A stretch of 64,000 nt of DNA from an uncultured Microthrixaceae bacterium (GCA_964635055.1 CAZWMT010000002.1:130550-194549); one strand, 5' to 3'. Positions 1,691-15,002 are shown, counted from the stretch's first letter. Translations and numbers: made by a program. Notes: generated from the letters alone by a model not told the origin.

Positions 1691-4087
1691 GTGTTGCGAC
1701 GCCGCGGCCCTTCTCGGCGCGACGCAAACCGACCCCTTGGCCCCGAGTCACCCATGAGCGATCCTTCCAGCGCGGTGCGAGACGTCCCCGAGGGGATGCG
1801 CGTCACCAAGCGCGGCAAGCTGAAGAAGCTGCGCAAGCGCAGCCTCCTCTGGCGCCTGCGCCGGGTGTTCTACCTGGCCCTGCTGCTGGTCGTGGCCGGT
1901 GTGGCCGGAGCGTTCTGGGTGCTGTCGCAGGTGAAGCTGCCCGCGGCCAACGACCAACTGCGCCAGACCAGCTACGTCTGCTTCGCCGACCGCCAGGGAA
2001 CCTGCGGGCCCGGCAACTCGGACTTCAAGCTGAAGGGCGACGAGGACCGGGCCGACATCCGCTACGAGGACCTGCCCGACGTCGTGGTCGAGGCCGTGAT
2101 CTCCGCCGAGGACCGCGACTTCTTCCAGCACGGCGGCATCGATCCCGTGGGCATCGCCCGGGCCGTGATGGCCAACGCCAACGACGAGCAGATCACCCAG
2201 GGCGGGTCGACCATCACCCAGCAGTACGTGAAGAACGTCTACCTCACCCGCGAGCGGTCGGTCACCCGCAAGCTGCGCGAGGCCGTCCTGGCGGTACGGG
2301 TGGACGACGAGCTCTCGAAGGAGGAGATCCTCGAGCGCTACCTCAACACGATCTACTTCGGTCGGGGCGCTTACGGCATCCAGGCCGCGTCCCAGGCCTA
2401 CTTCCGCCACGACATCCAGGAGCTCGACGGCCTCGTGCCCGATGCCGAGGGCAACCCGACCACGGCGTTCTCACCCGTCGAGCTCGCCCAGGTGGCCTAC
2501 CTGGCCGGCCTGATCCGCGCCCCCGAGCGGGCCGACGCGCAGCGAAACCCCCGGGTCGCCACCCAGCGCCGCGACTCGGTGCTCGACGCCATGCTCGAAG
2601 AGGGCTACATCGACCAGGCGCAGCGCGACGCCGCCGCGGCCGAGGGCTGGGAGGTGGACGACCTGTTCGCCTCGAAGAACATCGTGTCGCGATCGCCCGC
2701 AACCACCCTGGGGACGGTCCGCGACTGGGAGCACGGCACCGAGTACTTCGCGGAGTACGTGCGCCAGCAGCTCGTCGAGCAGTTCGGCGAGGACCAGGTC
2801 TACGGCGGCGGCCTGCGGGTGTACACGACGCTGTACCCCCAGATCCAGGACGCGGCCTACGAGACGGTCACGGGCACGCTGAACGTCCCGGGTGACCCCG
2901 CGGCGTCGATCGTGGCCCTCGACGACCGGGGCCGGGTGCGGGCCATGATGGGCGGCACCGACTTCGCCAACCAGTCCGTGAACCTGGCCGTCGGTGTGGA
3001 TGGCGGCGGCTCGGGTCGCCAGCCCGGTTCGTCGTTCAAGCCCTTCGCCATCGCCACCGCGCTGCGTCAGGGCTACTCGGCCGAGGCCCGCATCACCGTG
3101 CCTGGCAGCGCCGCGTTCAACCTGGCCGACTACGGCGCCGGTGTCGGCACCTGGCGGGTCTCTGGGGGCGGCGGCACCTACAACATGATGACCGCCCTGC
3201 CGCACTCTTCGAACATGTTCTACGCCACCTTGATGCTCAAGCTCGGGGCCCAGAGCGTCATCGACACGGCCCATCAGATGGGCATCACCGCGCCGCTCGA
3301 CCCCCCGGTGCCGTCGATTGTGCTGGGTGCCGGTGAGGTCTCGCCGCTCGACATGGCCTCGGCGTACTCGACGTTCATGAACCACGGCACCCACTACGAG
3401 CCCCAGGTGATCACCCGGGTGGAGGACAGCGACGGCAACGTGATCTGGCAGCCGCCCGAGACCGGCCAGCAGGTGCTCACGCCCGAGATCGCGGACATCA
3501 CCACCACCGCCATGCGAGGCGTGGTCACGAACGGCACGGCCACGGCGGCGCGACTCGACGACGTCGAGGTCGCGGGCAAGACGGGCACCACCCAGAACAA
3601 CAAGGACGCCTGGTTCGTGGGCTTCCGGTGCAACTTCGTGGCCTCGGTGTGGATGGGTTACCCCGGCTTCGACGGCCAGCCGGTACTGCCCATGAACAGC
3701 GTGCACGGCGAGCGCCAAGAGGGCGGTCGTCTGCCCGCGCGCATGTGGCACGACTTCATGACCCGTGTCGCCGACGAAGGGCTCCTCAACGACAACTGCG
3801 AGCTGGCCGACGTCACGGAGTTCCCCGACGGCAAGGACTTCACCGACGAGGACCTGCCCGGCGGTGCCTTCGGCGGCGGCAGCGGCGGCGGTACCTCCGT
3901 CACCGTGGCGCCCCAGACCCCGGTCGACGTCACCGTGCCGCCGGTGACGTCGCCGCCCGTCACCACGCCACCGGTCACCGACCCGCCGATCACGACGCCG
4001 ACGACCGCCAGCCCGCCGCAGGTTCCGCAGGGGTTGGCCGCCGAATCGGAGCCGGACGAGCGAAGACCGCGAGCCTCGCCGCCGTGA
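1691..4087 (+). CDS. Class A penicillin-binding protein (GT51 transglycosylase + transpeptidase) with Pro/Thr-rich C-terminal tail
   Basis: N-terminal TM. GT51 motifs EDRDFFQHGGID and GGSTITQQYVKN. Transpeptidase motifs SSFKPF (SxxK) and KTGTT. Tail is VTSPPVTTPPVTDPPITTPTT. Start is uncertain (GTG 1691, or ATG 1754 giving MSDPSSAV). Confidence 0.93.
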   Translation: MLRRRGPSRRDANRPLGPESPMSDPSSAVRDVPEGMRVTKRGKLKKLRKRSLLWRLRRVFYLALLLVVAGVAGAFWVLSQVKLPAANDQLRQTSYVCFADRQGTCGPGNSDFKLKGDEDRADIRYEDLPDVVVEAVISAEDRDFFQHGGIDPVGIARAVMANANDEQITQGGSTITQQYVKNVYLTRERSVTRKLREAVLAVRVDDELSKEEILERYLNTIYFGRGAYGIQAASQAYFRHDIQELDGLVPDAEGNPTTAFSPVELAQVAYLAGLIRAPERADAQRNPRVATQRRDSVLDAMLEEGYIDQAQRDAAAAEGWEVDDLFASKNIVSRSPATTLGTVRDWEHGTEYFAEYVRQQLVEQFGEDQVYGGGLRVYTTLYPQIQDAAYETVTGTLNVPGDPAASIVALDDRGRVRAMMGGTDFANQSVNLAVGVDGGGSGRQPGSSFKPFAIATALRQGYSAEARITVPGSAAFNLADYGAGVGTWRVSGGGGTYNMMTALPHSSNMFYATLMLKLGAQSVIDTAHQMGITAPLDPPVPSIVLGAGEVSPLDMASAYSTFMNHGTHYEPQVITRVEDSDGNVIWQPPETGQQVLTPEIADITTTAMRGVVTNGTATAARLDDVEVAGKTGTTQNNKDAWFVGFRCNFVASVWMGYPGFDGQPVLPMNSVHGERQEGGRLPARMWHDFMTRVADEGLLNDNCELADVTEFPDGKDFTDEDLPGGAFGGGSGGGTSVTVAPQTPVDVTVPPVTSPPVTTPPVTDPPITTPTTASPPQVPQGLAAESEPDERRPRASPP

Positions 4088-4275
4088 GCGAGGCCCCGCC
4101 GAACCCCGCCTGCACCTCCTGTGGGCGAGACGACGAGCCGCTGACCGCGGTGCACCGCGTGTACGTCACCCCGGAGGCGTGGGACACGCCGGGCCGGGCC
4201 GACGTGCAGGCCGAGGTCGAGCACTGGTGCTTCGTGTGCCAGACGCACTACCCCCATGAGGTCGTGCCGGGGTAG
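4084..4275 (+). CDS. Small zinc-ribbon-like protein (63 aa) translationally coupled to the PBP gene
   Basis: GTG 4084 overlaps the PBP stop (GTGA). CxxC (CTSC) and CxxC (CFVC) pairs are present. GC3 is very high. No family recognised. Confidence 0.55.
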   Translation: MSEAPPNPACTSCGRDDEPLTAVHRVYVTPEAWDTPGRADVQAEVEHWCFVCQTHYPHEVVPG

Positions 4276-4329
4276 CATTGGGCAACCGCCGGCAGCCGAG
4301 GGGCGCTGGACGGGGAAGGAGGCTCAGAC

Positions 4330-5223
4330 ATGAGCACAGCCAAGATGACCGCTCCTGCTGCACGCGCCCGCACCGCACCGGAGGTGCGCAGGTGCAAGGT
4401 CGCCGACGGTGCCGACCCGCTGGTGATGGTGACGGCGTACGACGCGCCCGGTGCCCGCATCGCCGACGAGGCCGGGGTCGACCTGATCCTGGTCGGGGAC
4501 TCGCTGGCCATGGTGGTGCTGGGCTACGACGACACGTTGCAGGTGACCATCGAGGACATGGCCCACCACACCGCCGCCGTCGCCCGGGCCAAGCCCCGGG
4601 CGCTGATCGTGGGCGACCTGCCGTGGATGAGCTACCACGTGTCGGTCGAGGACACGGTGCGCAACGCCGCCGCCCTGGTCCGGGCCGGCGCCCAGTGCGT
4701 GAAGCTCGAGGGGGGGCGCAAGCGCCTGCCCATGATCGAGGCCATCGTGGCCGCCGAGATCCCGGTGATGGGCCACCTGGGCCTCACCCCGCAGTCGGTC
4801 CACGCCATGGGCGGGTTCAAGGTGCAGGGCAAGGAGCACGAGGCCGCGCTCGAGCTGGTGGCCGAGGCCAAGGCCCTGGCCCACGCGGGCTGCTTCGCCA
4901 TCGTGCTGGAGGGCGTCCCGGACGTGGTGGCCGCCATGGTCACCGACGCGGTGGACGTGCCCACCATCGGCATCGGCGCCGGCGGCCGCTGCGACGGCCA
5001 GGTGCTGGTCTTCCACGACCTGCTCGGCATCGAGGACCGGGTGGCGCCGAAGTTCGTGCGCCGCTACGCATCGCTCAAGGACGACGCCGTCGCGGCCATG
5101 TCGGCCTTCGCCGACGACGTGCGGTCCGGCCGCTTCCCGAGCGACGACGAGAGCTACCACGTCAGCGCGGACGTGGCCGAGACCCTCGAGCTCTACGGCT
5201 CGACGCCTCCCCCCGGCGCCTGA
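4330..5223 (+). CDS. panB: 3-methyl-2-oxobutanoate hydroxymethyltransferase (pantothenate biosynthesis)
   Basis: VMVTAYDAPGARIADEAGVDLILVGDSLAMVVLGYDDT..VKLEGG..GHLGLTPQS are PanB signatures. SD GGAAGGAGG lies upstream of the ATG. Confidence 0.95.
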   Translation: MSTAKMTAPAARARTAPEVRRCKVADGADPLVMVTAYDAPGARIADEAGVDLILVGDSLAMVVLGYDDTLQVTIEDMAHHTAAVARAKPRALIVGDLPWMSYHVSVEDTVRNAAALVRAGAQCVKLEGGRKRLPMIEAIVAAEIPVMGHLGLTPQSVHAMGGFKVQGKEHEAALELVAEAKALAHAGCFAIVLEGVPDVVAAMVTDAVDVPTIGIGAGGRCDGQVLVFHDLLGIEDRVAPKFVRRYASLKDDAVAAMSAFADDVRSGRFPSDDESYHVSADVAETLELYGSTPPPGA

Positions 5224-5235
5224 GGGCCTCGAACT

Positions 5236-5264
5236 CGGGCCGGGCAGCGCAGCTGGCCGGCCCG
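5236..5264 (+). terminator. GC-rich hairpin 13 nt after the panB stop
   Basis: CGGGCCGG (5236-5243) pairs with CCGGCCCG (5257-5264), with inner CAGC/GCTG pairing. No U-tract, as is common in high-GC actinobacteria. Confidence 0.45.
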
Positions 5265-5385
5265 TAAGGTGTACCCTGTGCGTCACGGGAGGGGTCCCGA
5301 CGTCGGGGTACGAGTGCTCGACCCGCTCGACGTCGAGGTCGACGGACGACAGCTCGCGTCTATCGCCCGGGACCGCGGGTAGCTC

Positions 5386-7341
5386 GTGGCGACGGAGGGG
5401 GACGACCCGACGGTCGTCGATGTGCGGGTGCTCGGTGCCCTCGAGGTCGAGGTGGGGGGTGTCGCGCTCGCGCTCCCGTCGAAGGTGGAGCGGTCCGTGT
5501 TCGTGGCCCTCGCACTGCGGCCGGGGCGAACGGTCACCGTGGCGACGCTCGCCGCCGACGTGTGGGGCGACGAGTTGCCTCGCTCCTGGCGCAAGAACAT
5601 CCACGTGCGGATCTCGCGCCTGCGCCAGCGGCTGGGGAGCCAGACCGGGGGGTCCGAGCTGCTGATCACCGCCGATGACGGGTACCGCTTGGCGGTGGAC
5701 CCGGATCGGGTGGACGCCGTGCGGTTCGAACGCCTCCTCACCGAGGGGAGCCGGCTGCTCGCCGACGGCGCGCCGCACGAGGCGGAGCGCGTGCTGGGGG
5801 CGGCCATGACCCTGTGGCGGGGCGAGCCGCTGTCGGAGATCGCCGACACCCCGGTCGGCCAGGTGGAGACCACCCGGCTCACCGAGCTTCGCGACGTGGC
5901 CATCGACGAGCGGCACGAGGCGCTGCTGGCCGTCGGCGGGCACCACACGCTGGTCGCCGCCCTCGAGGGTGGGGTGGCCGCCCACCCCCTCCGGGAGCGG
6001 CGCTGGGCACAGCTGATGCTCGCGCTGTACCGCAGCGGCCGTCAGGGTGAGGCCCTCCGCGCCTACCAGCGGGCGAGAGCGGTGCTCGGCCACCAACTGG
6101 GCATCGAGCCGGGCGCCCAGCTCCGCCGGCTCGAGGCGGCCATCCTCCGCAACGACCCGGCGCTCGACCTCCCCGCCTCGCCGACGCCCGGCGAGATGCC
6201 GTCGGGCCAGATCGTCGACGCGGCACCGGGCGGGCCGCCGGAGGTGGTGGCGTCGCACCTCGAGTGGGCCGAACGTCACCGGGAGGTGGTGGCGTTCATC
6301 GGCCGCGCTGAGGACGTCGAGCGTCTCCACGCGGTCTGGCGGCGGTGCCGGGACGACGAGGTGGTCGGGGTGCTCGCCGTGCGCGGCGACGCAGGGGTGG
6401 GCAAGACCCGGTTGGCGGCGGAGGTCGCGCTGCAGGTCGCCGGCGAGGGCGGGCTGGTGTTGCACGGTCGCTGCGAGCCCGACATCCCGTTGTCGATCCT
6501 CCGGGGCTCGGTCCGTTCCTTCGGGCTGCGCCCGGGGGACGACGCCTCCCTGGGGTCGTCCGCGGTCGTCGACCTCGGCCTGGAGGTCTACGAGGCCATG
6601 AAGGCCGAGGCTCGCCGGCGGCCGGTGTTGCTGGTGATCGACGACGCCCAGTGGGCTGATCCCTACACGGTCATGATGGTGCGGTTCCTGTGCGACCGGC
6701 CGATGCTCGACGATTCCCTCCCCGTCCTGGCGCTCGTGTTGCTCCGCGACGGCTCGTCGTGGCCCGCCGGCCTGGCCGAGGTCTTGAACGAGATGCAGCG
6801 CCACGAGGTCTACCGGACCCTCCACGTCGAGCCTCTCGGACGCGCCGATGCCGAGGCGCTGCTCGCCGAACGACTGGGCGAGGAGGTCGACCCCGACGAG
6901 GTCCGCCCCCTCCTCGACGATCTCGGGGGCATCCCCGAGGTCGTGCTGGCGATGGCGAAGCACCTGCTCGACACGAACCAGCCGCCGACCCTCGGAGGGG
7001 TGGACGTGGTCGGCGTGCCCGATCCCACCCGAGTGGCGATCGGCCGCCAACTCGACGAGTTGTCCGACGAGGTGCTGCGCCTCCTGCGGGCGGCGTCGGT
7101 CCTCGGGAACCGCTTCGCGCTGGTCGATGCCGCCGCCGCGGCAGGGCTCGACGAGGAGGCCGTCCTCGATCAGCTCGACCACGCCATCGAGGCGCGCCTC
7201 GTCGACCCGGTCGCCGGTGACGCCGCCAGTTTCACCTTCGTGACCGGCGCCGTGCGGCGGGTGCTCCTCGACCGGCTCACCGCCGCCCGCCGGGCCCGGA
7301 TCGAGGCGCGCTTGTCCCGGGCAGCGGGCGGCGCGACCTGA
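5386..7341 (+). CDS. AfsR/SARP-family regulator (OmpR-type winged helix + BTAD + P-loop NTPase), copy 1
   Basis: VRVLGALEVEVGG..VWGDELP..NIHVRISRLRQRLG (wHTH). BTAD is WRGEPL..RERRWAQLMLALYRSGRQGEALRAYQRARAVLGHQLGIEPG. Walker A is GDAGVGKTRLAAE. Confidence 0.9.
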   Translation: MATEGDDPTVVDVRVLGALEVEVGGVALALPSKVERSVFVALALRPGRTVTVATLAADVWGDELPRSWRKNIHVRISRLRQRLGSQTGGSELLITADDGYRLAVDPDRVDAVRFERLLTEGSRLLADGAPHEAERVLGAAMTLWRGEPLSEIADTPVGQVETTRLTELRDVAIDERHEALLAVGGHHTLVAALEGGVAAHPLRERRWAQLMLALYRSGRQGEALRAYQRARAVLGHQLGIEPGAQLRRLEAAILRNDPALDLPASPTPGEMPSGQIVDAAPGGPPEVVASHLEWAERHREVVAFIGRAEDVERLHAVWRRCRDDEVVGVLAVRGDAGVGKTRLAAEVALQVAGEGGLVLHGRCEPDIPLSILRGSVRSFGLRPGDDASLGSSAVVDLGLEVYEAMKAEARRRPVLLVIDDAQWADPYTVMMVRFLCDRPMLDDSLPVLALVLLRDGSSWPAGLAEVLNEMQRHEVYRTLHVEPLGRADAEALLAERLGEEVDPDEVRPLLDDLGGIPEVVLAMAKHLLDTNQPPTLGGVDVVGVPDPTRVAIGRQLDELSDEVLRLLRAASVLGNRFALVDAAAAAGLDEEAVLDQLDHAIEARLVDPVAGDAASFTFVTGAVRRVLLDRLTAARRARIEARLSRAAGGAT

Positions 7342-7435
7342 GCGCTCCGCCCGGTCAGGCGGGCCGGTGCTCGGCGGGCCGCTCGGGTGGGCCGAGGCTC
7401 GGTCGGCGCTGACGTACGGCCGGCACTGCCGTCCC

Positions 7436-7466
7436 GATGTCGCCGTGGTTGGGATGTGGTGTCGCC
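7436..7466 (+). promoter_or_regulatory. Direct repeat GATGTCGCC / GGTGTCGCC, 22-nt register, upstream of the LPVTG protein gene
   Basis: GATGTCGCC at 7436-7444 and GGTGTCGCC at 7458-7466. The same nonamer recurs upstream of the two downstream paralogue genes. Confidence 0.35.
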
Positions 7467-7542
7467 ACCATCGGATTGAGTCCGGGGTGTGCCTCGGGCC
7501 GAGCGGTCGGGGTGGACCAACGGAAAGGGCACGGCATCGGCC

Positions 7543-10152
7543 ATGCGACCCCAGCGCCACAGGACGCGTGGCGTGCACCGCGCCGTGCGGTCGCGCGGGT
7601 CCGGGCGTTCGATCGTGTCCATGGGGGGGACCGCGGCGCGGCTCGGCGCGGTCCTCACACTGCTCGGTGTGTTGGCCGCGACGACGGGCGTGTTCGCCGC
7701 CGTCACCGACAGCGCCGAGACCGGCGTGGCCCAGGTCGACTCGTCGGAGGCGCCGCCGCTCGAGCTCGGGTCCGTTGGCGACCGGGTGTGGGCCGACGTC
7801 GACCACGACGGCATCCAGGACCTGGGTGAGCCAGGGGTCGGCGGGGTCACGGTGACCCTGCTCGACGAGTCGGGAGCACCCGTCACCGCCGGCGCACTCG
7901 GCGCGCCGGTGGCGCCGGCCGTCACCGACGCCGCCGGCACCTACGGCTTCGGCGATCTGGCGCCGGCCACCTATCTCGTGCGGTTCTCCGGGTTGCCCAC
8001 CGGTGCCCGTTTCACCTACCACGGCTCGGTCCCCGGCGACGGCACGGATTCCGACGCCGATCCCGACACCGGGGTCACCGCGCCCATCGCCGTGGCCTCC
8101 GGGGAGCGCGACACCGGCGTGGACGCCGGGCTCTGGACGCCGGCACCCGGCCTCTCGCTCGAGAAGCGGGCCCAGGGCGCTGACGCCGACACCGCGCCGG
8201 GACCGTCCCTCCCCATCGGCGACACGGTCACCTTCGACTACCTGGTCACGAACACCGGGAACGAGCCCCTGCGGGACCTCGCGGTGACCGACGACCGGGG
8301 CGTGGAGGTGACCTGCGCACAGACCGAGATCGGCCGGGGTCAGGCGGTCGCCTGCCGCGGTACCGACGATGCGGTCGCCGGTGCCTACACGAACACCGGC
8401 ACCGCGACGGCGAACGGGGCCGACTCGGGCGAGCCCTCGCCACCGGCACGGGATTCGGCCCACTACACCGGCGTGGAGCCGATGCTCTCGCTCGAGAAGT
8501 CGGTCAACGGATCCCCGGCCGACTCGGCATCCGATCCCGTTGCTCTCGACATCGGGCGCCCGGTCACCTTCACGTTCCGGGTGGAGAACCTGGGCACGGA
8601 GCCGCTCGGCGCGATCACGCTCACCGACGAGGCGACGGTGGTGGCCTGCCCGCGTGCCGAGTTGGGCCCTGGGGAATCCATGGAGTGCGACCCGATGGGA
8701 GGGGTGGCGGAGGCGGGCCTGCACACCAACGTGGCGTCGGTCTCCGGTACGGGCACGAGCACGGGGCGGCCTGCGGGTGCGACGGACAGTGCCTCGTACT
8801 TCGGTCAGGATCGCCGGGTCTCGTTCCTGAAGGAGGTGCTCGACCCGGTCTCGGGCGGCTACCTGGACGCCGATGCGGACGCGGGCACCCCGGGGAGCAA
8901 CGACGGCGTGCTGGCGGTCGTTGCCGCGGGCGGGACCGGCCACTTCCGGTTCTCCCTGGCCAACCAGGGGAACGAGCCGTTGCCGGACGCGGTCGTCACC
9001 GATCCCGCCTGCGATGCTCCGCCCGAGCTCGTCAGTGGCGACACCGAACCGGTGGGAAGCCTCGACGTGGGGGAGACCTGGGTGCTCACGTGCGAGCGCC
9101 GTGACCTCACCGCCGGGTTCGTGAACACGGCCTCGGCCAGTGCCGGCGGGCTGACGGCGGTCGAGCGGGCCGGCATCGCCGTCGTCACCGGCACCCCCGA
9201 CGTGCGCATCACCAAGAAGGTGTTCGATCCGCAGACGCAGCAGTTCGGTGACGGCGCCACCATCACCATCGGCGACAGTGCGACGTTCCGCATCCGCGTG
9301 ACGAACACGGGTGAGCGGGGCCTCGCCGATGTCGTGGTGAGCGATCCGCAGGTGTCGGGATGCGGGCGGACCCTCCCGGGGGTGCTGGCACCAGGTGCGA
9401 CCGAGATCTGGACCTGCGAGCGCCACGGTCTCACCTCCGGGTTCACCAATCAGGCGTCGGTCCGCGCCCAGCCCGTCGGCGGCGGTGACCGTGTGCGGGC
9501 GCACGACACCGCCAGCGTCCAGGTGATCGACCCCACGGCCGCAGACCTCGAGCTCACGAAGTCGCTCGTCGGGCAGTCCGGCGGCCTGGCGGTGTGGCGG
9601 TTGCTGGTGACCAACCACGGACCCGGCCCGATCGCCGGGCCGGTGACGGTGCGCGACGACCTACCCGGTGAGCTGACCTACGTCTCGGCCGCCGGCGGCG
9701 GGTTCACCTGCTCCGCCCGTTCGCGCCTCGTGACGTGCGTGCGCGCCGCGGCGCTGGCCGACGGCGCCACCGCCACGATCACGCTCACCACCAGGGTCGT
9801 CGTCACGGCGCCCACCACGATCACCAACCAGGCGCAGGTCTTCGCGCCCTCGGCCGACGCCAGGGTCGACAACAACATCGACACGGCCACCGTGCAGGCC
9901 TCGGGCGGGGGCGGCAACGGGGGGACGATCCCGGGTGATCCCGGGCCGGCTCATGTTCCGGGCCCCCCGGGCGGCGCGGCCGGGCCCGACGGGTTGCCTG
10001 ACCGCGCCGTGCCCCACGCCGGCCCCCTCCCCGTCACGGGTGTGGACGAGGCCGCGCTGGTCGCCCTCGGTATCTGCCTGCTGGGGATCGGCATCGTGTT
10101 GCTCTGGGGCGTGGCCCGCCGGCGTCGGGCCGAGGAGGAGGCAGTGTCCTGA
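7543..10152 (+). CDS. Large surface protein: SipW-type signal peptide, SdrD/Cna-B-like domain, multiple DUF11-like Cys-pair domains, LPVTG cell-wall sorting signal
   Basis: Signal region is LGAVLTLLGVLAATTGVFAAVTDSAETG. GDRVWADVDHDGIQDLGEPGVGGVTVTLLD is SD-repeat B-domain-like. Repeated ~100-aa modules have paired Cys. The terminal DUF11-like module is LELTKSL..WRLLVTNHGPGP. LPVTG (10027-10041) is followed by a TM and RRRRAEEE. Start is ATG 7543 or ATG 7621. Confidence 0.85.
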   Translation: MRPQRHRTRGVHRAVRSRGSGRSIVSMGGTAARLGAVLTLLGVLAATTGVFAAVTDSAETGVAQVDSSEAPPLELGSVGDRVWADVDHDGIQDLGEPGVGGVTVTLLDESGAPVTAGALGAPVAPAVTDAAGTYGFGDLAPATYLVRFSGLPTGARFTYHGSVPGDGTDSDADPDTGVTAPIAVASGERDTGVDAGLWTPAPGLSLEKRAQGADADTAPGPSLPIGDTVTFDYLVTNTGNEPLRDLAVTDDRGVEVTCAQTEIGRGQAVACRGTDDAVAGAYTNTGTATANGADSGEPSPPARDSAHYTGVEPMLSLEKSVNGSPADSASDPVALDIGRPVTFTFRVENLGTEPLGAITLTDEATVVACPRAELGPGESMECDPMGGVAEAGLHTNVASVSGTGTSTGRPAGATDSASYFGQDRRVSFLKEVLDPVSGGYLDADADAGTPGSNDGVLAVVAAGGTGHFRFSLANQGNEPLPDAVVTDPACDAPPELVSGDTEPVGSLDVGETWVLTCERRDLTAGFVNTASASAGGLTAVERAGIAVVTGTPDVRITKKVFDPQTQQFGDGATITIGDSATFRIRVTNTGERGLADVVVSDPQVSGCGRTLPGVLAPGATEIWTCERHGLTSGFTNQASVRAQPVGGGDRVRAHDTASVQVIDPTAADLELTKSLVGQSGGLAVWRLLVTNHGPGPIAGPVTVRDDLPGELTYVSAAGGGFTCSARSRLVTCVRAAALADGATATITLTTRVVVTAPTTITNQAQVFAPSADARVDNNIDTATVQASGGGGNGGTIPGDPGPAHVPGPPGGAAGPDGLPDRAVPHAGPLPVTGVDEAALVALGICLLGIGIVLLWGVARRRRAEEEAVS

Positions 10153-10180
10153 GGAGGCAGTGTCCTGAGGAGGCAGTGCC
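10135..10180 (+). repeat. 16-bp tandem repeat (2.9 copies) spanning the stop codon of the LPVTG gene
   Basis: GAGGAGGCAGTGTCCT at 10135-10150 and 10151-10166, then GAGGAGGCAGTGCC at 10167-10180. The TGA stop (10150-10152) straddles the boundary between copies 1 and 2. Confidence 0.9.
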
Positions 10181-10211
10181 ACGCGGCTGGTCAGGAGACC
10201 TCGGTCGGCGC

Positions 10212-10257
10212 GGTGTCGCCGCCGTTGCGCCGCGGCGACACCACGGGTCGCGACGAT
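10212..10257 (+). promoter_or_regulatory. Conserved upstream element of TasA-like gene 1: GGTGTCGCCGCCGTTG, perfect 11-bp hairpin, GACGAT box
   Basis: GGTGTCGCCGC (10212-10222) pairs with GCGGCGACACC (10232-10242). GACGAT at 10252-10257 lies 40 nt from the motif start, the same spacing as upstream of paralogue 2. Confidence 0.45.
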
Positions 10258-10307
10258 CCCGACGAGGGTGGAGGACCGCTCTCGACCGACCACAGGGAGA
10301 CAAGGCC

Positions 10308-11018
10308 ATGAACCGGAGACGAGGAGCCGCCCTGGTGGCGGTCGGCGTGGTGATGACCATGGCCACGGTGCTCGGCGTGTTCGCCGCACTGACCGACACC
10401 GCCGAGACGGGGACGCTGCAGGCCACGTCGACCGGGCTCTCCGAGTCGACCAACCTGCAGATCGACAACACCGGGGCCATCTCGAGCTCGTCCACGAACT
10501 GCGCCACCCGCACCAACTATGTCGACAACCAGAACGTGGTGCCGCTCAGCTGGACGAACGCCGCCGAAGGCGGCACGTTCACCCGGTTCATCTGCCTCAA
10601 GAACACCGGCGTCGAGGTCGCGCAGATGTCGATCTCCCTTCACGGCGTGACGAACACGGACACCGGCTGCACCGGCGACGAGATCGACTTCGACGCGACG
10701 AGCTGTGGCACAGGCGCCGGTGAGCTGGGCCCGAACCTCCAGGCGGAGATCCAGAAGGTCGGCACCTCCGACACGTCCAACGTGCTCTGCAACGAGGGCG
10801 ACATCTCCGGTGCGGTCAACTCGTACTCGACGATCGTCAACGCGACGACGCCGCGCACCCTCGACACGCTCTCGGCCAACGGGAAGATCCAACCGAACAC
10901 GTACGCCTGCTACCGGATCACGATGGAGTACCCGACGAGCATCTCGGACACCAACGTGCAGAAGGCGCAGTCCGACAAGGTGGAGTGGCAGTTCCAGTTC
11001 CACGCCGAGATCGACTGA
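10308..11018 (+). CDS. Secreted 6-Cys protein with SipW-cognate-type signal peptide (TasA/camelysin-like candidate), paralogue 1
   Basis: MNRRRGAALVAVGVVMTMATVLGVFAALTDTAETG. SD AGGGAGA lies 7 nt upstream of ATG 10308. Motifs shared with paralogue 2: NCAT, CLKNTG, NTDTGCTGDE, SCGTGAGELGP, YACYRI, AQSDKVEWQFQF. Confidence 0.85.
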   Translation: MNRRRGAALVAVGVVMTMATVLGVFAALTDTAETGTLQATSTGLSESTNLQIDNTGAISSSSTNCATRTNYVDNQNVVPLSWTNAAEGGTFTRFICLKNTGVEVAQMSISLHGVTNTDTGCTGDEIDFDATSCGTGAGELGPNLQAEIQKVGTSDTSNVLCNEGDISGAVNSYSTIVNATTPRTLDTLSANGKIQPNTYACYRITMEYPTSISDTNVQKAQSDKVEWQFQFHAEID

Positions 11019-11043
11019 GTCGCTGTCGCCGCTGGTCCGCCGC

Positions 11044-11071
11044 GGGCCGACCCCCTATGGGGGGTCGGCCC
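11044..11071 (+). terminator. Strong hairpin after paralogue 1
   Basis: GGGCCGACCCCC (11044-11055), loop TATG, GGGGGTCGGCCC (11060-11071). Perfect 12-bp stem, 26 nt after the stop. Confidence 0.6.
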
Positions 11072-11093
11072 GTGCTCGCGCCTGTGGCGCGGT

Positions 11094-11160
11094 GGTGTCG
11101 CCCGCAGCGTGGCTGGTGTCGCCGCCGTTGGGTCGGCGCGGCACCAGCCGTTGGGACGAT
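11094..11160 (+). promoter_or_regulatory. Conserved upstream element of TasA-like gene 2: GGTGTCGCC direct repeat (21-nt register), imperfect hairpin, GACGAT box
   Basis: GGTGTCGCC at 11094-11102 and 11115-11123. The 16-mer GGTGTCGCCGCCGTTG is identical to 10212-10227. CTGGTG/CACCAG arms are present. GACGAT is at 11155-11160. Confidence 0.45.
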
Positions 11161-11207
11161 CTGAGCAGGCGGGCGTGGGCCCGTCGTCCACCTTCTGGAG
11201 GGATCCT

Positions 11208-11900
11208 ATGAACCGCAAGAAGAGCATCAGCCTGCTCGTGGTCGGCGTCATCATGACGTTCGCCACGCTGCTGGGTGTCTTTGCCGCACAGTTCGACTCG
11301 GCCTCGACGGGGACGCTGGAGGTGAACTCGAGCTCGCTGACGTCGTCGGTCGACCTCAAGATCGCCGACCAGGTGATCTCGACCAACGCCACGGACTGCG
11401 CGACCATCAGCGCCGCCACCTACCTCGACAACCAGACGGTCCAGCCGCTGGTGTTCGCCAACGCCGATCCGGGCGACGACCTCGTCCGCTACGTCTGCGT
11501 CAAGAACACGGGCGCCGAGACCGCCAACATCAACCTCGACCTGTTCGCGGCCACGAACACCGACACGGCGTGCACGGGTGACGAGTTGAGCTTCGACCCC
11601 GCCAGCTGCGGTACCGGTGCCGGTGAGCTGGGACCGCTGCTCAACGTGGACGTCTTCCGGGTGGGCGCGGCGGCCACCGCCAACGTCGGCTGTGACGAGC
11701 TCCTCTCGCTCTCCGGCGCCACCTACAACAGCGGCATCGTGAACGCCACGGGCAACGCCATCGGCTCCATCGGCGCCGGCGAGTACGCCTGCTACCGGAT
11801 CGACGTCGACTACCCCTCCATCAGCACCAGCGGTGACGAGGAGCAGGAGGCCCAGTCGGACCGGGTCACCTGGAAGTTCCGGTTCAACGGCAACGCCTGA
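11208..11900 (+). CDS. Secreted 6-Cys protein with SipW-cognate-type signal peptide (TasA/camelysin-like candidate), paralogue 2
   Basis: MNRKKSISLLVVGVIMTFATLLGVFAAQFDSASTG. SD GGAGGG lies upstream of ATG 11208. Aligns along its length with paralogue 1. Confidence 0.85.
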   Translation: MNRKKSISLLVVGVIMTFATLLGVFAAQFDSASTGTLEVNSSSLTSSVDLKIADQVISTNATDCATISAATYLDNQTVQPLVFANADPGDDLVRYVCVKNTGAETANINLDLFAATNTDTACTGDELSFDPASCGTGAGELGPLLNVDVFRVGAAATANVGCDELLSLSGATYNSGIVNATGNAIGSIGAGEYACYRIDVDYPSISTSGDEEQEAQSDRVTWKFRFNGNA

Positions 11901-11930
11901 GCCCGTAGCAGTCCGGTAGCAAACCGTGAC

Positions 11931-11969
11931 GGGGTGGGTGCCGGCCGACGATGGCCCTGCACCCACCCC
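11931..11969 (+). terminator. Hairpin between paralogue 2 and the signal peptidase gene (terminator or attenuator candidate)
   Basis: GGGGTGGGTGC (11931-11941) pairs with GCACCCACCCC (11959-11969). Perfect 11-bp stem with a 17-nt loop. Confidence 0.4.
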
Positions 11970-12021
11970 TCCGGGCGTTTCGAGAAGGGTTGGTCGAGAT
12001 GGACGACGGGGGAGGGGTGCG

Positions 12022-12774
12022 ATGAGCGGAGCGGGCGTCACCGACGCCGGGAGGTCCGGGGCCAGGGGTTCGGCGGCGGGAGGCGGCCGCACGGCCCGCC
12101 GTCGCCGCGGTTCGACCGTCACCGGGGGCGTGGCCCTGATCGCCACCATCGTGATGCTGCCGGTGGCCCTGCTCTTCGTCATCGTGTGGTTGGCCGGCTG
12201 GCAGCTCGGCTTCGTGCGCACGGGCTCGATGGATCCCGCGCTCCCCCCGGGATCGATGATCGTGAGCAGCCCCATCTCCGCGGACGAGGTCGAGGTGGGG
12301 ATGGTGATGCAGTTCGTCGATCCCCGTGACAACACCCGGATGATCACCCACCGGGTGATCGAGGTGAACCGCGACGACGCCGGGCAGCTGTCGTTCGTCA
12401 CGAAGGGTGACGCGAACGTCGACCGAGACACCGACGAGGTACCGGCCGAGAACGTGCGGGCCGAGGTCCGCTGGCACGTGAAGCGCCTCGGGTCCCTGCT
12501 CTGGGCGGTGCGGTGGCCGCGGTCACTCGGCTTCACCCTGGTACCGCTGCTGCTGGTCGGACTGGGCCTGCTCCTCGGCCGACGCGACGACGCTCCCACG
12601 GGTGACCGAGCGAGGCGCGCGGGCTCGGTGATCGAGTCGCCCGCGCCGTGCGCCGGCTGTCGCGTCGTCATCGACGAGGTGGACCGCTACTGCCGGCGGT
12701 GTGGCACCCGCCAGCCCGCACACCGGCACCCGGCGACGCTCGAGCGGGGGGAGCGGGCCCCGGTCGACACCTGA
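12022..12774 (+). CDS. Signal peptidase I, ER/archaeal (S26B, SipW-like) type, with extra C-terminal TM and cytoplasmic zinc-ribbon tail
   Basis: TGSMDPALPPGS (catalytic Ser), MITHRVIEV (His), FVTKGDANVDRDTDEV. An N-terminal TM and a second TM (FTLVPLLLVGLGLLL) are present. The tail is CAGC..x10..CRRC (12649-12702). SD GGGGGAGGGG lies upstream of ATG 12022. Confidence 0.88.
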   Translation: MSGAGVTDAGRSGARGSAAGGGRTARRRRGSTVTGGVALIATIVMLPVALLFVIVWLAGWQLGFVRTGSMDPALPPGSMIVSSPISADEVEVGMVMQFVDPRDNTRMITHRVIEVNRDDAGQLSFVTKGDANVDRDTDEVPAENVRAEVRWHVKRLGSLLWAVRWPRSLGFTLVPLLLVGLGLLLGRRDDAPTGDRARRAGSVIESPAPCAGCRVVIDEVDRYCRRCGTRQPAHRHPATLERGERAPVDT

Positions 12775-12898
12775 GGGCCCCCGGCGGAGGGCCGGTGAGC
12801 GTCCTTGGGCCGTGATACCCCCCCTTCACCATGCCGATACCACCTGCTCGCGACGGTGGTCACCGTCCAGTCGGTTCGAAGGGGAGGCAGGAGTCGCT

Positions 12899-14989
12899 GT
12901 GGGGGACGTCTCGCAAGTCCGCATCATGCTGTTGGGGCCGTGCCGCTTGGAGATCGGTGGGGCAGAGGTGGCGATGCCCGCTCGCAAGGAGCGGATGGCG
13001 CTGGCCACGCTGGCCCTCAGGCCCGGTCGCCCGCTCGGGGTCCACGAGCTCGCCGCCGTCCTCTGGGGTGAGCCGTTGCCGGACGCCGCCCGCAAGAGCG
13101 CGCAGGCCGTGGCCTCGCGCCTGCGCCGGCGACTGGCTGCCGCGGCCCCCGGCATCGAAGCCAGGTTCGCCACCCACGACGATGGCTACACCCTCCGCGT
13201 GGAGCCCGCCGACGTCGACGCCTTCTGCTTCGAACGACTGGTCGACGACGCCGACCGAGCCCTCCACGAGGGCAACGCCGAACAGGCGCTCAGCCTGCTC
13301 GGTGAGGCCACGGCCCTGTGGCGGGGTGACCCGGTCCCCGAGCTCGCCGACGCGGCCCTCGGCCAGATCGAGGCGGCCCGCCTCACGGGGCTCCGGGTCC
13401 GTGCCCTCGAGCTGTGGAACGACGCCGAGCTCACCGTCGGGCGGAACGACCCTGTCGTCGGTCGCGCCGAGGGACTGCTGGCCGAGGAGCCGTTCCGCGA
13501 GAACCTGTGGGCGCAGCTGATGCTCGCGCTCTACCGCTCCGGCCGTCAGGCCGAGGCGCTCCGTGCCTATCAGCGAGCCCGTGCCGCACTGGTCGATCAG
13601 CTCGGCATCGAGCCTGGGCCCGAGCTGCGCCGGCTCGAGGCCGCCATCGTGACCCAGGCACGCGAGCTCGACCTCAGGACGCTCGAGCCCTCGGCCCCGG
13701 GACCCGCTCCGCGGGGCACTCCCCCGCCGCCCGCCAGCCGGCGCGATGCCGGCGTGCCGGACTGGGTGACCCGTTCGTGCGTCGGCCCGTTCGTGGACCG
13801 CCAGGTCGAGATCGCCCGCATCGAGTCGGCGTTCGACGCCGCTGCGTCCGGTCTGCGGGTCGTGGGGGTGTCGGGCGAGGACGGCATCGGCAAGTCGCGC
13901 CTCGTCGCCGAGGCCGCTCGCCGCTTCGCCGAAGCCGGCGCGCTCGTCCTCGGCGGGCAGTGCCACACCGACCGGTCGTCGCTGGCCCCCTTCCGCCACC
14001 TGCTCGACCGCTACGCCGCCCAGGTGCCGAGCTCTGCCGACGATTGGACGACCGGCACCGCCGCCACCTTCGGTGCGCTGAGCGCCGTCATGGCCGAGCA
14101 ACTCGGCGGCACCTGCCAGCCCGACCTCGACGACCCGTACACCGCGGCGTCCGGTGTCATGTCGCTGGTCCGCTCCGCCGGTCATCGCCGGCCCACGGTC
14201 CTCGTCCTCGATGACCTGCACCTCGCCGACCCGTCGACCATCGAGGCCGTGCGCCAGCTGGTGGACGGACACCCCAACGTGTCGATGCTCGTCGTTCTCG
14301 TGTTCCGCGGCGCGGACGCACGGTTGCGGCCGGAGCTGCTCGATCTCCTCGACGACCTGCACCGACTACAGGGCTACGAACGCATCCCGCTGGGCCCGCT
14401 GCCGAGCGACGACGGTGCGGCGCTCCTCGCCGAGCTGCTCGGGGGCCCGGTAGGAGCCCACTGGGAGCGGGCGTTCGTGACCCTGAACGAGGAGGTGGGC
14501 GGGAAGCCCCGCTACCTGCTGGCCCTCGCTCGCGCCGTCGCCGATCGCCGCGGGGTGGAGGCGGACGACTGGGTGCCGGCGGGCATCGCCGAGCTGGGTC
14601 TGCCCCGGAGCCTCCATGACCTGATCCGGCGCAACCTACGGGCACTACCGGTGGCGTACCGCGCCGTGCTGGACGCGGCCGCGGTGGTCGACAGCCCGTT
14701 CGGTGTCGGCCTGGTCGCCGATCTGGCCGGCTGCAGCACCGACACCGTCCTGGCGGCGCTCGATTGGCTGCGGGTGGCGGGCTTGGTCGTCCAGTCGGAT
14801 CTCGGCACCGCCGCGTTCAGCTGTGAGGCGGTCCGCCGGGCGGTCCGGGACGACCTTGTGCCGGCGCACCTCCTGCGTCTCCGCGCGCGGCGCTCGGATC
14901 CTCGCACGACCGGCGAGGGCGGCGAGGCCGGCGAAGGCGGCGAGGGCACCCGACCCCTCCACCGCGAGCTCTTCTCGACCCCGACCTGA
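12899..14989 (+). CDS. AfsR/SARP-family regulator (winged helix + BTAD + P-loop NTPase), copy 2
   Basis: VRIMLLGPCRLEIGG..LWGEPLP. BTAD is WRGDPVPEL..RENLWAQLMLALYRSGRQAEALRAYQRARAALVDQLGIEPG. Walker A is GEDGIGKSRLVAEAA. GTG 12899 is preceded by GGGGAGGCAGGAG. Confidence 0.88.
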   Translation: MGDVSQVRIMLLGPCRLEIGGAEVAMPARKERMALATLALRPGRPLGVHELAAVLWGEPLPDAARKSAQAVASRLRRRLAAAAPGIEARFATHDDGYTLRVEPADVDAFCFERLVDDADRALHEGNAEQALSLLGEATALWRGDPVPELADAALGQIEAARLTGLRVRALELWNDAELTVGRNDPVVGRAEGLLAEEPFRENLWAQLMLALYRSGRQAEALRAYQRARAALVDQLGIEPGPELRRLEAAIVTQARELDLRTLEPSAPGPAPRGTPPPPASRRDAGVPDWVTRSCVGPFVDRQVEIARIESAFDAAASGLRVVGVSGEDGIGKSRLVAEAARRFAEAGALVLGGQCHTDRSSLAPFRHLLDRYAAQVPSSADDWTTGTAATFGALSAVMAEQLGGTCQPDLDDPYTAASGVMSLVRSAGHRRPTVLVLDDLHLADPSTIEAVRQLVDGHPNVSMLVVLVFRGADARLRPELLDLLDDLHRLQGYERIPLGPLPSDDGAALLAELLGGPVGAHWERAFVTLNEEVGGKPRYLLALARAVADRRGVEADDWVPAGIAELGLPRSLHDLIRRNLRALPVAYRAVLDAAAVVDSPFGVGLVADLAGCSTDTVLAALDWLRVAGLVVQSDLGTAAFSCEAVRRAVRDDLVPAHLLRLRARRSDPRTTGEGGEAGEGGEGTRPLHRELFSTPT

Positions 14990-15002
14990 GCCGGGCGCCA
15001 CC

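What the first reader, a model, noticed from the sequence alone, without database searches (positions are those of the whole stretch)
7436..11160. Shared GGTGTCGCC cis-element upstream of all three SipW-substrate genes (candidate SARP boxes or 5' hairpin)
Seen: (G/A)GTGTCGCC-type nonamers occur as direct repeats 22 nt apart (7436 and 7458) upstream of the LPVTG gene. They occur 21 nt apart (11094 and 11115) upstream of paralogue 2, and once at 10212 upstream of paralogue 1. The 16-mer GGTGTCGCCGCCGTTG is identical at 10212 and 11115, although the coding regions have diverged substantially. In both cases the motif starts a hairpin (perfect 11-bp stem 10212-10242; imperfect at 11113-11146). It also lies exactly 40 nt before a GACGAT box (10252 and 11155), and 96 or 93 nt before the ATG. 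Established: SARPs bind direct heptameric repeats spaced by integral helical turns (11 or 22 bp) next to or overlapping the -35 region. Inference: these are binding sites for one or both flanking SARPs, or alternatively a conserved 5'-UTR RNA structure.
Basis: partly seen in the sequence, partly recalled or inferred. Interest (0 to 1): 0.6.

Follow-up and report, generated by a model that had tools for sequence, protein, structure and literature searches.

The report
SARP-type activator boxes before surface-protein genes
The repeated GGTGTCGCC motif is real and conserved, and is best read as part of three ordinary SARP-activator promoters: three 11-nt-spaced boxes ending 9 nt before a -10-like hexamer, in front of three secreted surface-protein genes.

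Summary
The bare nonamer is common (711 copies in the 6.2-Mb genome). The composite element is not: TGTCGCC-N4-TTG-N8-nGnCnCC occurs four times genome-wide, and three of those are these promoters.

Two orthologous loci (L008, L009) keep the element base for base in register. Conservation starts sharply at the first TGTCGCC.

Each promoter reads as three heptamers at an 11-nt period, then 9 nt, then a -10-like hexamer. The hexamer is GACGAT or GATCAT before the paralogues and TTGAGT before the LPVTG gene. It lies 47-64 nt before the start codon.

Other SARP/SipW modules show the same layout with different heptamers:
- CGAAGCC in contig C9 of this genome and a close variant in G015
- SGTTSCC in L010
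- a looser version (GTCTACC) in C19

This matches the published SARP promoter geometry, and two SARP genes flank the locus.

The hairpin is strong only in this genome. Orthologues fold no better than shuffles, there is no covariation, and the LPVTG promoter lacks it.

Verdict: SARP boxes (about 0.68), a new member of a known kind.

The parts
5386..7341 (+). SARP1 regulator gene (OmpR-type DNA-binding domain + BTAD + AAA_16 ATPase)
   Evidence: Pfam Trans_reg_C 1e-07, BTAD 8e-42, AAA_16 3e-18. NCBIfam partial AfsR and BagI/FevR hits. The recognition helix WRKNIHVRISRLRQRL is conserved in L008 and nearly so in L010.
7438..7444 (+).
   Evidence: Conserved in L008. Conservation against L008 begins here.
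7449..7455 (+). LPVTG promoter unit 2, TTGGGAT (divergent unit, 11 nt after unit 1)
   Evidence: L008 has TTGGGGC at the same place.
7460..7466 (+).
   Evidence: Identical in L008.
7476..7481 (+). Candidate -10 hexamer TTGAGT, 9 nt after unit 3. Weak: it has T6 but no A2.
   Evidence: Conserved in L008. There is no nAnnnT hexamer within 25 nt after unit 3, so this assignment is the least secure.
7543..10152 (+). LPVTG-anchored surface protein gene (SdrD_B, DUF7507, DUF11 repeats) with a GVFAAVTDSAETG N-terminal signal
10214..10220 (+). Paralogue-1 promoter unit 1, TGTCGCC
   Evidence: Invariant in L008 and L009. Conservation starts here.
10225..10231 (+). Paralogue-1 promoter unit 2, TTGCGCC
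   Evidence: The orthologues have TTGTGCC.
10236..10242 (+). Paralogue-1 promoter unit 3, CGACACC. It is also the 3' arm of the 11-bp palindrome 10212-10242.
   Evidence: The orthologues have AGGCACC or CGGCACC.
10252..10257 (+). Candidate -10 hexamer GACGAT (A2, T6), 9 nt after unit 3 and 50 nt before the ATG
   Evidence: L008 has GACGAT. L009 has GATCAT, which keeps A2 and T6.
10308..11018 (+). Paralogue 1 (236 aa secreted protein, no Pfam or NCBIfam family)
11041..11074 (+). Terminator-like hairpin after paralogue 1. It makes paralogue 2 a separate transcription unit.
   Evidence: z -4.2. Kept in L008 through wobble-compatible changes.
11096..11102 (+). Extra upstream TGTCGCC of the paralogue-2 promoter, 21 nt before unit 1 (one base off phase)
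   Evidence: L008 has the same TGTCGCC at the same 21-nt offset.
11117..11123 (+). Paralogue-2 promoter unit 1, TGTCGCC
11128..11134 (+). Paralogue-2 promoter unit 2, TTGGGTC
   Evidence: Identical in L008.
11139..11145 (+). Paralogue-2 promoter unit 3, CGGCACC. It is also part of the 3' arm of the hairpin 11110-11149.
   Evidence: Identical in L008.
11155..11160 (+). Candidate -10 hexamer GACGAT, 9 nt after unit 3 and 47 nt before the ATG
   Evidence: Identical in L008.
11208..11900 (+). Paralogue 2 (230 aa, 49% identical to paralogue 1)
11931..11969 (+). Terminator-like hairpin after paralogue 2
   Evidence: z -4.1. Compensatory changes against L008.
12022..12774 (+). SipW-type (archaeal-type) signal peptidase I
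   Evidence: TIGR02228 2e-20, SipW model 6.5e-16.
12701..14989 (+). SARP2 regulator gene. The true start is probably downstream of 12701.
   Evidence: BTAD 6e-42, AAA_16 5.5e-20, Trans_reg_C 0.0035. The recognition helix ARKSAQAVASRLRRRL is identical in L008.

Best explanation
The GGTGTCGCC motif is the best-conserved unit of three activator-dependent promoters, one each for the LPVTG surface protein gene and the two secreted paralogues.

Each promoter has this layout:
- three heptamer units at a strict 11-nt period: unit 1 TGTCGCC; unit 2 TTGnG..; unit 3 TGTCGCC or CGGCACC
- a 9-nt gap
- a -10-like hexamer (GACGAT or GATCAT; TTGAGT for the LPVTG gene)
- 47-64 nt to the start codon

If transcription starts about 7 nt after the hexamer, units 2 and 3 cover roughly -39 to -18. 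That is where the two direct repeats of the AfsR box sit. Unit 1 would be a third, upstream site, as in the PimR operator.

Inferred mechanism: one or both flanking SARP regulators bind side by side on one face of the helix. They replace the missing -35 contact and recruit RNA polymerase, so the SipW substrates are switched on together.

Shown here: the sequences, their spacing, their conservation, their near-uniqueness in the genome, and the recurrence of the layout in related modules. Inferred: the -10 and TSS assignment, and binding by the SARPs.
For: 1. Two SARP genes flank the targets.

2. The orthologous promoters in L008 and L009 align to the window without a single indel over 47 nt. 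TGTCGCC is invariant. Alignability begins sharply at the first TGTCGCC and runs to the ATG.

3. The promoter block is 68-79% identical between the paralogues. Third codon positions are only 50-60% identical.

4. The composite motif is essentially private to this locus: 3 of 4 genomic hits. A matrix from orthologue sites alone ranks these three promoters first.

5. An nAnnnT hexamer has a genome frequency of 0.018 per position. It stands exactly 9 nt after the third unit in 10 of the 12 promoters tabulated from three modules, and in 8 of those 10 it is the only such hexamer within 25 nt. Those modules are C2 (with its orthologues L008 and L009), C9 (CGAAGCC) and L010 (SGTTSCC x3; zero such triples in the own genome). 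G015, the C9-type module of a same-genus genome, repeats the layout with CGAATCC/CGAAGAC. C19 shows only two GTCTACC copies 33 nt apart with divergent units between them, followed after 9 nt by CACGAT.

6. All these modules pair SipW and paralogue genes with SARP genes.

7. Published SARP targets have direct repeats 11 or 22 bp apart, with the 3' repeat 8 bp from the -10. The AfsR box lies at -40 to -19, next to a poor -10 (CACTGT) (PMC10936776). PimR binds three heptamers separated by 4-nt spacers (PMC5930380).

8. Terminator hairpins after paralogue 1 and paralogue 2 leave only 11075-11207 for the paralogue-2 promoter. The boxes and hexamer fill that space.
Against: - There is no TSS and no binding evidence.
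- Units 2 and 3 resemble unit 1 only weakly (2-5 of 7). An unbiased scan for 11-nt triples scores the window promoters within the genomic background: about 10 triples with score >=15 per 10 kb, and the generic layout occurs 70 times on the + strand.
- Matrices from the paralogue promoters and from the LPVTG promoter do not find each other.
- The LPVTG hexamer TTGAGT lacks the A at position 2.
- The extra paralogue-2 box is 21 nt from unit 1, not 22.
- Only two orthologous loci exist, so conservation rests on few, related sequences.
- The unusually strong palindromes in this genome are not explained by this reading.
- The heptamer register was chosen so that the gap is 9 nt in all modules.
Confidence: 0.68

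Rival explanations
1. A conserved RNA hairpin acts on stability, processing or translation. It would sit in the 5' UTR, or in the intercistronic part of a read-through transcript. GGUGUCGCC is its 5' arm.
For: - Strong hairpins exist in the window: -29 kcal/mol with z -2.2 at 10205-10250, and -33.7 kcal/mol with z -5.6 at 11108-11152.
- A core of 5 pairs is kept in all five paralogue-type sequences, rising to 7-8 pairs in most.
- The pairing register is specific: 85% of cells pair, against 30-58% when the partner is slid.
- Four of five sequences use a U.G pair, which RNA tolerates but a DNA palindrome does not.
Against: - Orthologues fold no better than shuffles: z -0.42, +0.42 and -0.56.
- No pair of the main helix changes on both sides. 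Departures only break pairs. The covariation term is unfavourable at +0.96, and 128 of 500 shuffles reach the observed score.
- The LPVTG promoter carries the boxes but no hairpin (z -0.33).
- Rfam gives no match.
- Genuine hairpins in the same locus, the two terminators, do show compensatory or wobble changes against L008.
- Nothing alignable lies upstream of the box to serve as its promoter.
Confidence: 0.12
2. An inverted-repeat operator (GGTGTCG ... CGRCACC, half-sites 22 bp apart) for a dimeric regulator other than the SARPs, acting as repressor or activator over the -35 region.
For: The 11-bp palindrome at 10212-10242 is perfect. Inverted half-sites are kept in all five paralogue-type promoters.
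Against: - The palindrome is degenerate in the orthologues, with a T:G mismatch in 4 of 5.
- The LPVTG promoter has direct repeats, not inverted ones.
- Among the ORFs of window 1691-14989 scanned against Pfam and NCBIfam, the only DNA-binding regulators are the two SARPs.
- Related modules have clear direct repeats.
Confidence: 0.08
3. The promoter is read by an alternative (for example ECF-type) sigma factor. TGTCGCC or CGTT would serve as -35 or -10 elements, with no activator boxes.
For: No sigma-70-type -35/-10 pair is found in 7300-12100. The short conserved GC-rich blocks with CGTT recall ECF promoters; this comparison is from memory only.
Against: - The spacing between TGTCGCC and CGTT is only 3-4 nt.
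- No sigma-factor domain was found in any of the ORFs of window 1691-14989 scanned against Pfam and NCBIfam.
- The conserved nAnnnT hexamer 9 nt after unit 3 recurs across modules whose heptamers differ. That fits one housekeeping -10 combined with module-specific activators.
Confidence: 0.05
4. The likeness is only inherited. The promoter was duplicated together with the gene and carries no specific regulatory element beyond a generic promoter.
For: Paralogues 1 and 2 are a tandem duplication. Only two orthologous loci are available.
Against: - The block is better conserved than synonymous sites: 0.68-0.79 against 0.50-0.60.
- The unrelated LPVTG gene carries the same TGTCGCC-N4-TTGGG start and the same layout, and this is conserved in L008.
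Confidence: 0.04

Closest known systems
PimR-type (SARP-LAL) operator of the pimM promoter, Streptomyces natalensis
   Same: [quoted passage not shown] The regulator carries a SARP domain plus a nucleotide-binding domain. A secondary site with off-phase (10-bp) spacing also exists, which parallels the 21-nt extra box of paralogue 2 (PMC5930380).
   Different: The PimR heptamer is CGGCAAG and its three copies are near-identical. That operator does not overlap the -35. Its target is a regulator gene of an antibiotic cluster. Here units 2 and 3 are divergent, the array ends 9 nt before the -10, and the targets are secreted surface proteins.
AfsR afs box at the afsS promoter, Streptomyces coelicolor
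   Same: Two 11-bp direct repeats lie at -40 to -19, overlapping the -35 region of a promoter with poor -35 and -10 (CACTGT) elements. The 3' repeat is 8 bp from the -10. The SARP protomers bind side by side (PMC10936776). Units 2 and 3 here would occupy the same positions.
   Different: The box sequence differs. Here there is a third, upstream and best-conserved unit. Two different SARPs are encoded next to the targets. The lineage is different: the closest named homologue comes from an Acidimicrobiales MAG.
Classical small-SARP boxes (ActII-ORF4, DnrI; heptamer TCGAGCS, recalled from memory)
   Same: Heptamer repeats at an 11-bp period close to the -10. The C9 module of this genome uses (A)TCGAAGCC, which resembles that consensus.
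   Different: The window's heptamer TGTCGCC is unrelated in sequence. The targets are not biosynthetic genes.
tapA-sipW-tasA operon control in Bacillus subtilis (SinR and partners; from general knowledge)
   Same: A SipW-type peptidase is encoded together with its secreted fibre or adhesin substrates, under dedicated transcriptional control.
   Different: The regulator family differs entirely, and here each substrate gene has its own promoter. No paper in the searched library links SipW with SARPs in this sense.

Membership tests
SARP-dependent promoter (SARP box) | Direct repeats spaced by 11 or 22 bp (whole helical turns) | tested here: met
   Units lie at 7438/7449/7460, 10214/10225/10236 and 11117/11128/11139, and in the same register in L008 and L009. 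Units 1 and 3 of the LPVTG promoter are identical. Otherwise the units are degenerate (2-5 of 7), and the extra box at 11096 is 21 nt away.
SARP-dependent promoter (SARP box) | The 3' repeat lies about 8 bp upstream of the -10 element, overlapping the -35 region | tested here: inconclusive
   At sequence level, an nAnnnT hexamer stands exactly 9 nt after unit 3 in 10 of 12 promoters tabulated from three modules. That equals 8 nt if the unit is counted as an 8-mer. The -10 itself is inferred: no TSS data were available, and the LPVTG hexamer lacks A2.
SARP-dependent promoter (SARP box) | A SARP regulator (OmpR-type DNA-binding domain + BTAD) is encoded in or next to the regulated cluster | tested here: met
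   Two such genes are present, at 5386-7341 and 12701-14989. SARP genes also stand in L008, L010, C9 and C19.
SARP-dependent promoter (SARP box) | The box is conserved in orthologous clusters and private to the cluster | tested here: met
   Conserved in L008 and L009. 3 of 4 genomic hits of the composite motif are in this locus. An orthologue-only matrix ranks the three sites first.
SARP-dependent promoter (SARP box) | Physical binding by the SARP and SARP-dependent transcription | not testable with these tools
   This needs EMSA or footprinting and reporter or in vitro transcription assays.
Structured cis-regulatory RNA (5'-UTR element) | A secondary structure conserved through compensatory changes | tested here: not met
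   No pair of the main helix changes on both sides. 128 of 500 shuffles reach the observed score. The RNAalifold covariation term is +0.96. Orthologue folds have z about 0.
Structured cis-regulatory RNA (5'-UTR element) | Match to a described RNA family | tested here: not met
   An Rfam scan of 5000-15500 at E <= 1 found nothing relevant.
Structured cis-regulatory RNA (5'-UTR element) | The element lies downstream of the transcription start | not testable with these tools
Intrinsic terminator | A GC-rich hairpin followed by a U tract | tested here: not met
   The scan found no terminator-like site at 10212-10242 or 11110-11149. No T run follows either hairpin.

The most novel reading that the evidence does not exclude
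The two different flanking SARPs could read a composite, non-identical three-unit box as a heteromeric pair. One SARP would read TGTCGCC. The other, whose recognition helix matches the L010 SARP that goes with SGTTSCC boxes, would read the (C/G)GTTG unit.

This would be one of at least three mutually insulated SARP/box/SipW-fibre modules in a single genome, each with a private heptamer code.

In addition, the sharpened palindrome between units 1 and 3 might serve as a hairpin on read-through transcripts.
Probability: 0.15. Interest if true: 0.6.

Novelty: new member of a known kind. Interest (0 to 1): 0.4.

Why it matters
SARPs are known almost only as switches of antibiotic gene clusters in Streptomyces. 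Here the same promoter grammar appears to drive a SipW-dependent surface-fibre and adhesin locus. The organism is a high-GC actinobacterium; the closest named homologue comes from an Acidimicrobiales MAG.

The genome holds at least three parallel SARP/SipW modules, each with its own repeated heptamer before its genes (TGTCGCC, CGAAGCC, GTCTACC).

If confirmed, this would do three things:
- extend the known targets of SARPs
- give a small natural set of apparently orthogonal SARP/box pairs for studying how these activators read DNA
- provide testable promoters for an uncultured lineage

It adds no new mechanism.

Tried and rejected
- Protein-based searches for more orthologous loci in metagenome contigs and genome contigs found none.
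- DNA-pattern scans of both collections gave 184 loci (185 motif matches). All look like chance: none has the extended motif, and none has a paralogue or SipW homologue nearby.
- Family-level (18 genomes) and order-level (401 genomes) searches found no close orthologue of paralogue 1.
- Distant homologues from other actinobacterial contigs (L197-L199) have no SARP neighbours, so they were not informative.
- The third genomic copy of the 16-mer (C57) and the pair in C24 lie in sequence that looks coding by eye.
- A sigma-70 consensus scan found no promoter in 7300-12100.
- Rfam gave nothing.
- A CCGTAGC/CGGTAGC pair 11 nt apart before sipW (11903, 11914) is not conserved in L008 and was dropped.
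- An alternative -10 (CAGCGT, 11105-11110) upstream of the paralogue-2 hairpin has no aligned counterpart in L008.
- An unbiased score for 11-nt triples did not single out the window promoters from the GC-rich background. The argument therefore rests on conservation, locus specificity and the shared layout, not on internal repeat similarity.

Full report
**Observation.**
- GATGTCGCC stands at 7436 and GGTGTCGCC at 7458, 10212, 11094 and 11115.
- An inverted copy lies at 10234-10242.
- The 16-mer GGTGTCGCCGCCGTTG is identical at 10212 and 11115.
- GACGAT follows 40 nt later in both paralogue promoters.
- The start codons are at 10308 and 11208.

- Two SARP regulators (OmpR-type DNA-binding domain + BTAD + AAA_16) lie at 5386-7341 and 12701-14989.
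- A DUF11/SdrD_B LPVTG protein lies at 7543-10152.
- Two 49%-identical paralogues without any family hit lie at 10308-11018 and 11208-11900.
- A SipW-type signal peptidase lies at 12022-12774.
- All three putative substrates share the N-terminal GVFAAxxDxAxTG segment. That they are SipW substrates remains an inference.

**Chance.** The nonamer alone is frequent in this 72% G+C genome: 711 copies, about 7 per 64 kb. One copy therefore proves nothing. The composite element is a different matter.
- TGTCGCC-N4-TTG-N8-nGnCnCC occurs four times in 12.5 million strand positions, and three of them are these promoters.
- A weight matrix made only from the orthologous sites of other genomes ranks the three window promoters first, second and third in the whole genome: 41.9, 41.2 and 27.8, with the next at 16.4.
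- No other site in the genome comes close, so the regulon seems confined to this locus.
- One reservation: matrices made from the paralogue promoters and from the LPVTG promoter do not find each other. What the two promoter types share is the first ~16 nt and the layout.

**Conservation.** Close relatives are rare. A search of 5.8 billion proteins gave only three useful relatives.
- L009 is a 1.5-kb contig (81% identity to paralogue 1).
- L008 is a syntenic 237-kb contig (66%).
- L010 is a distant locus (40%) from an Acidimicrobiales MAG.

In L008 and L009 the paralogue promoters align with the window over 47 nt without any indel, and TGTCGCC is invariant. In all three intergenic regions alignability begins sharply at the first TGTCGCC and then runs to the ATG. 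Upstream of it nothing aligns except the terminator hairpin of the preceding gene. Between the paralogues the block is 68-79% identical, against 50-60% at third codon positions.

**Anatomy.** Laid out at an 11-nt period, every promoter reads as three heptamers, 9 nt, a hexamer, then 47-64 nt to the start codon:
- LPVTG gene: TGTCGCC gtgg TTGGGAT gtgg TGTCGCC accatcgga TTGAGT
- Paralogue 1: TGTCGCC gccg TTGCGCC gcgg CGACACC acgggtcgc GACGAT
- Paralogue 2: TGTCGCC gccg TTGGGTC ggcg CGGCACC agccgttgg GACGAT

L009 has GATCAT as its hexamer, which keeps the A at position 2 and the T at position 6. Those are the two positions that matter most in a -10 element.

**The same grammar elsewhere.**
- In L010, three operons are each preceded by SGTTSCC three times at a strict 11-nt period, then 9 nt, then GACCGT, AACGCT or GACAGT, then 54-57 nt to the gene. 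One operon is the paralogue pair and two SARP genes follow. No such triple exists in the window's own genome.
- The window's genome holds two further paralogue/SipW/SARP modules.
- In contig C9, CGAAGCC-type heptamers stand three times at 11 nt, then 9 nt, then GAACCT or GACGAT. They precede both an LPXTG-like gene and a paralogue-like gene.
- In contig C19, GTCTACC occurs twice, 33 nt apart, and the second copy is followed after 9 nt by CACGAT. The two units between them are divergent, so this is a looser case.
- A same-genus genome (G015) repeats the C9 layout.
- Overall an nAnnnT hexamer (frequency 0.018 per position) stands exactly 9 nt after the last unit in 10 of the 12 promoters tabulated (C2 with L008/L009, C9, L010). 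In 8 of those 10 it is the only one within 25 nt.

**Comparison with what is known.** SARP targets are described as direct repeats 11 or 22 bp apart, with the 3' repeat 8 bp from the -10. The AfsR box occupies -40 to -19 of a promoter with a poor -35 and a CACTGT -10. Two protomers bind side by side and contact sigma region 4 (PMC10936776). PimR, a SARP with an added nucleotide-binding domain, binds three heptamers with 4-nt spacers, and a secondary site with 10-bp units (PMC5930380).

With a start about 7 nt after the hexamer, units 2 and 3 here fall on the AfsR positions and unit 1 is a third, upstream site. I therefore read the element as SARP boxes of three separate promoters. The separation into transcription units is supported by terminator-like hairpins after paralogue 1 (11041-11074) and paralogue 2 (11931-11969). 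Both keep their pairing in L008 through wobble or compensatory changes.

**The hairpin.** It is real in this genome: an 11-bp perfect stem at 10212-10242, and 16 bp at 11110-11149 (z -2.2 and -5.6). It does not behave like a conserved RNA structure.
- The three orthologous sequences fold no better than shuffles (z -0.42, +0.42, -0.56).
- The 5' arm never varies, and changes in the 3' arm only break pairs or make U.G.
- No pair of the main helix changes on both sides, and 128 of 500 shuffles reach the observed covariation.
- The LPVTG promoter has the boxes but no hairpin.
- Rfam has no match, and no T run follows either stem.

A core of 5 pairs is kept everywhere (7-8 in most sequences) and the register is specific. 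A minor role cannot be excluded. Why this lineage sharpened the palindrome remains unexplained.

**Weak points.**
- There is no TSS and no binding evidence.
- Units 2 and 3 are only weakly like unit 1.
- Generic 11-nt triples are common in this GC-rich genome.
- The LPVTG hexamer TTGAGT lacks A2.
- The extra paralogue-2 box is one base off phase, although this is conserved in L008.
- Conservation rests on two related loci.
- The heptamer register was chosen to give the same 9-nt gap everywhere.

**Which SARP binds?** This is unknown. The recognition helices of SARP1 and SARP2 differ from each other, and each is identical in its L008 orthologue. SARP1's helix is nearly that of one L010 SARP, whose locus uses SGTTSCC, and this resembles the window's (C/G)GTTG unit 2. 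That hints at two SARPs reading alternate units, but it is speculation.

**Verdict.** The SARP-box reading is supported in refined form (confidence about 0.68) and the RNA-structure reading is not supported (about 0.12). This is a new member of a known kind of cis-element. Its modest interest comes from the unusual target (a SipW surface-protein locus; no paper in the searched library links SipW with SARP regulators in this sense, and none mentions SARP-family regulators together with Acidimicrobiia) and from the several parallel modules, each with a private heptamer.

Noticed in passing
own genome C9:130014-136700 and C19:50044-64200: There are two further modules of paralogue-like genes, a SipW-type peptidase and SARP gene(s). 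Each has its own repeated heptamer before its genes (C9: CGAAGCC x3 at an 11-nt period; C19: two GTCTACC copies 33 nt apart), followed after 9 nt by an nAnnnT hexamer.
   Followed up: partly
L010:1457-7165: A distant homologous locus from an Acidimicrobiales MAG has textbook triple heptamers (SGTTSCC, strict 11-nt period) before three operons. One of them encodes a PI-PLC/lipase gene. Two SARP genes lie downstream.
   Followed up: partly
window 10135-10180: A short tandem repeat (GAGGAGGCAGTGTCCT-like, about 2.7 copies) straddles the stop codon of the LPVTG gene, just upstream of the paralogue-1 promoter. It is absent from the aligned part of L008 and L009.
   Followed up: no
window 11161-11207 vs L008:8921-8967: The predicted 5' UTR of paralogue 2 is almost invariant between the two genomes (about 42 of 47 nt). 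That is more conserved than the coding sequence, so a further element (RNA structure or binding site) may lie there.
   Followed up: no
window 11041-11074 and 11931-11969: Terminator-like hairpins without a clear T tract follow paralogue 1 and paralogue 2. Both are kept in L008 through wobble or compensatory changes. GACGAT also occurs in the loop of the second one (11947-11952), probably by chance.
   Followed up: partly
L008:204-900, 2275-2985, 10657-11400: The syntenic contig has two SARP1-like copies and one SARP2 orthologue. Their reading frames are broken into pieces, either by assembly indels or because they are pseudogenes.
   Followed up: no
own genome, 18 tblastn hits: The genome encodes about 16-18 SARP-domain paralogues, four others on contig C2 alone. 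Several other 11-nt triple repeats followed by nAnnnT (for example C1:246570, C18:91002, C37:53032) may be boxes of other SARPs.
   Followed up: no
window 12701-12774: The longest SARP2 ORF overlaps the end of sipW by 74 nt. Its DNA-binding domain starts about 90 residues in, so the true start is probably further downstream, and sipW and SARP2 may be co-transcribed.
   Followed up: no
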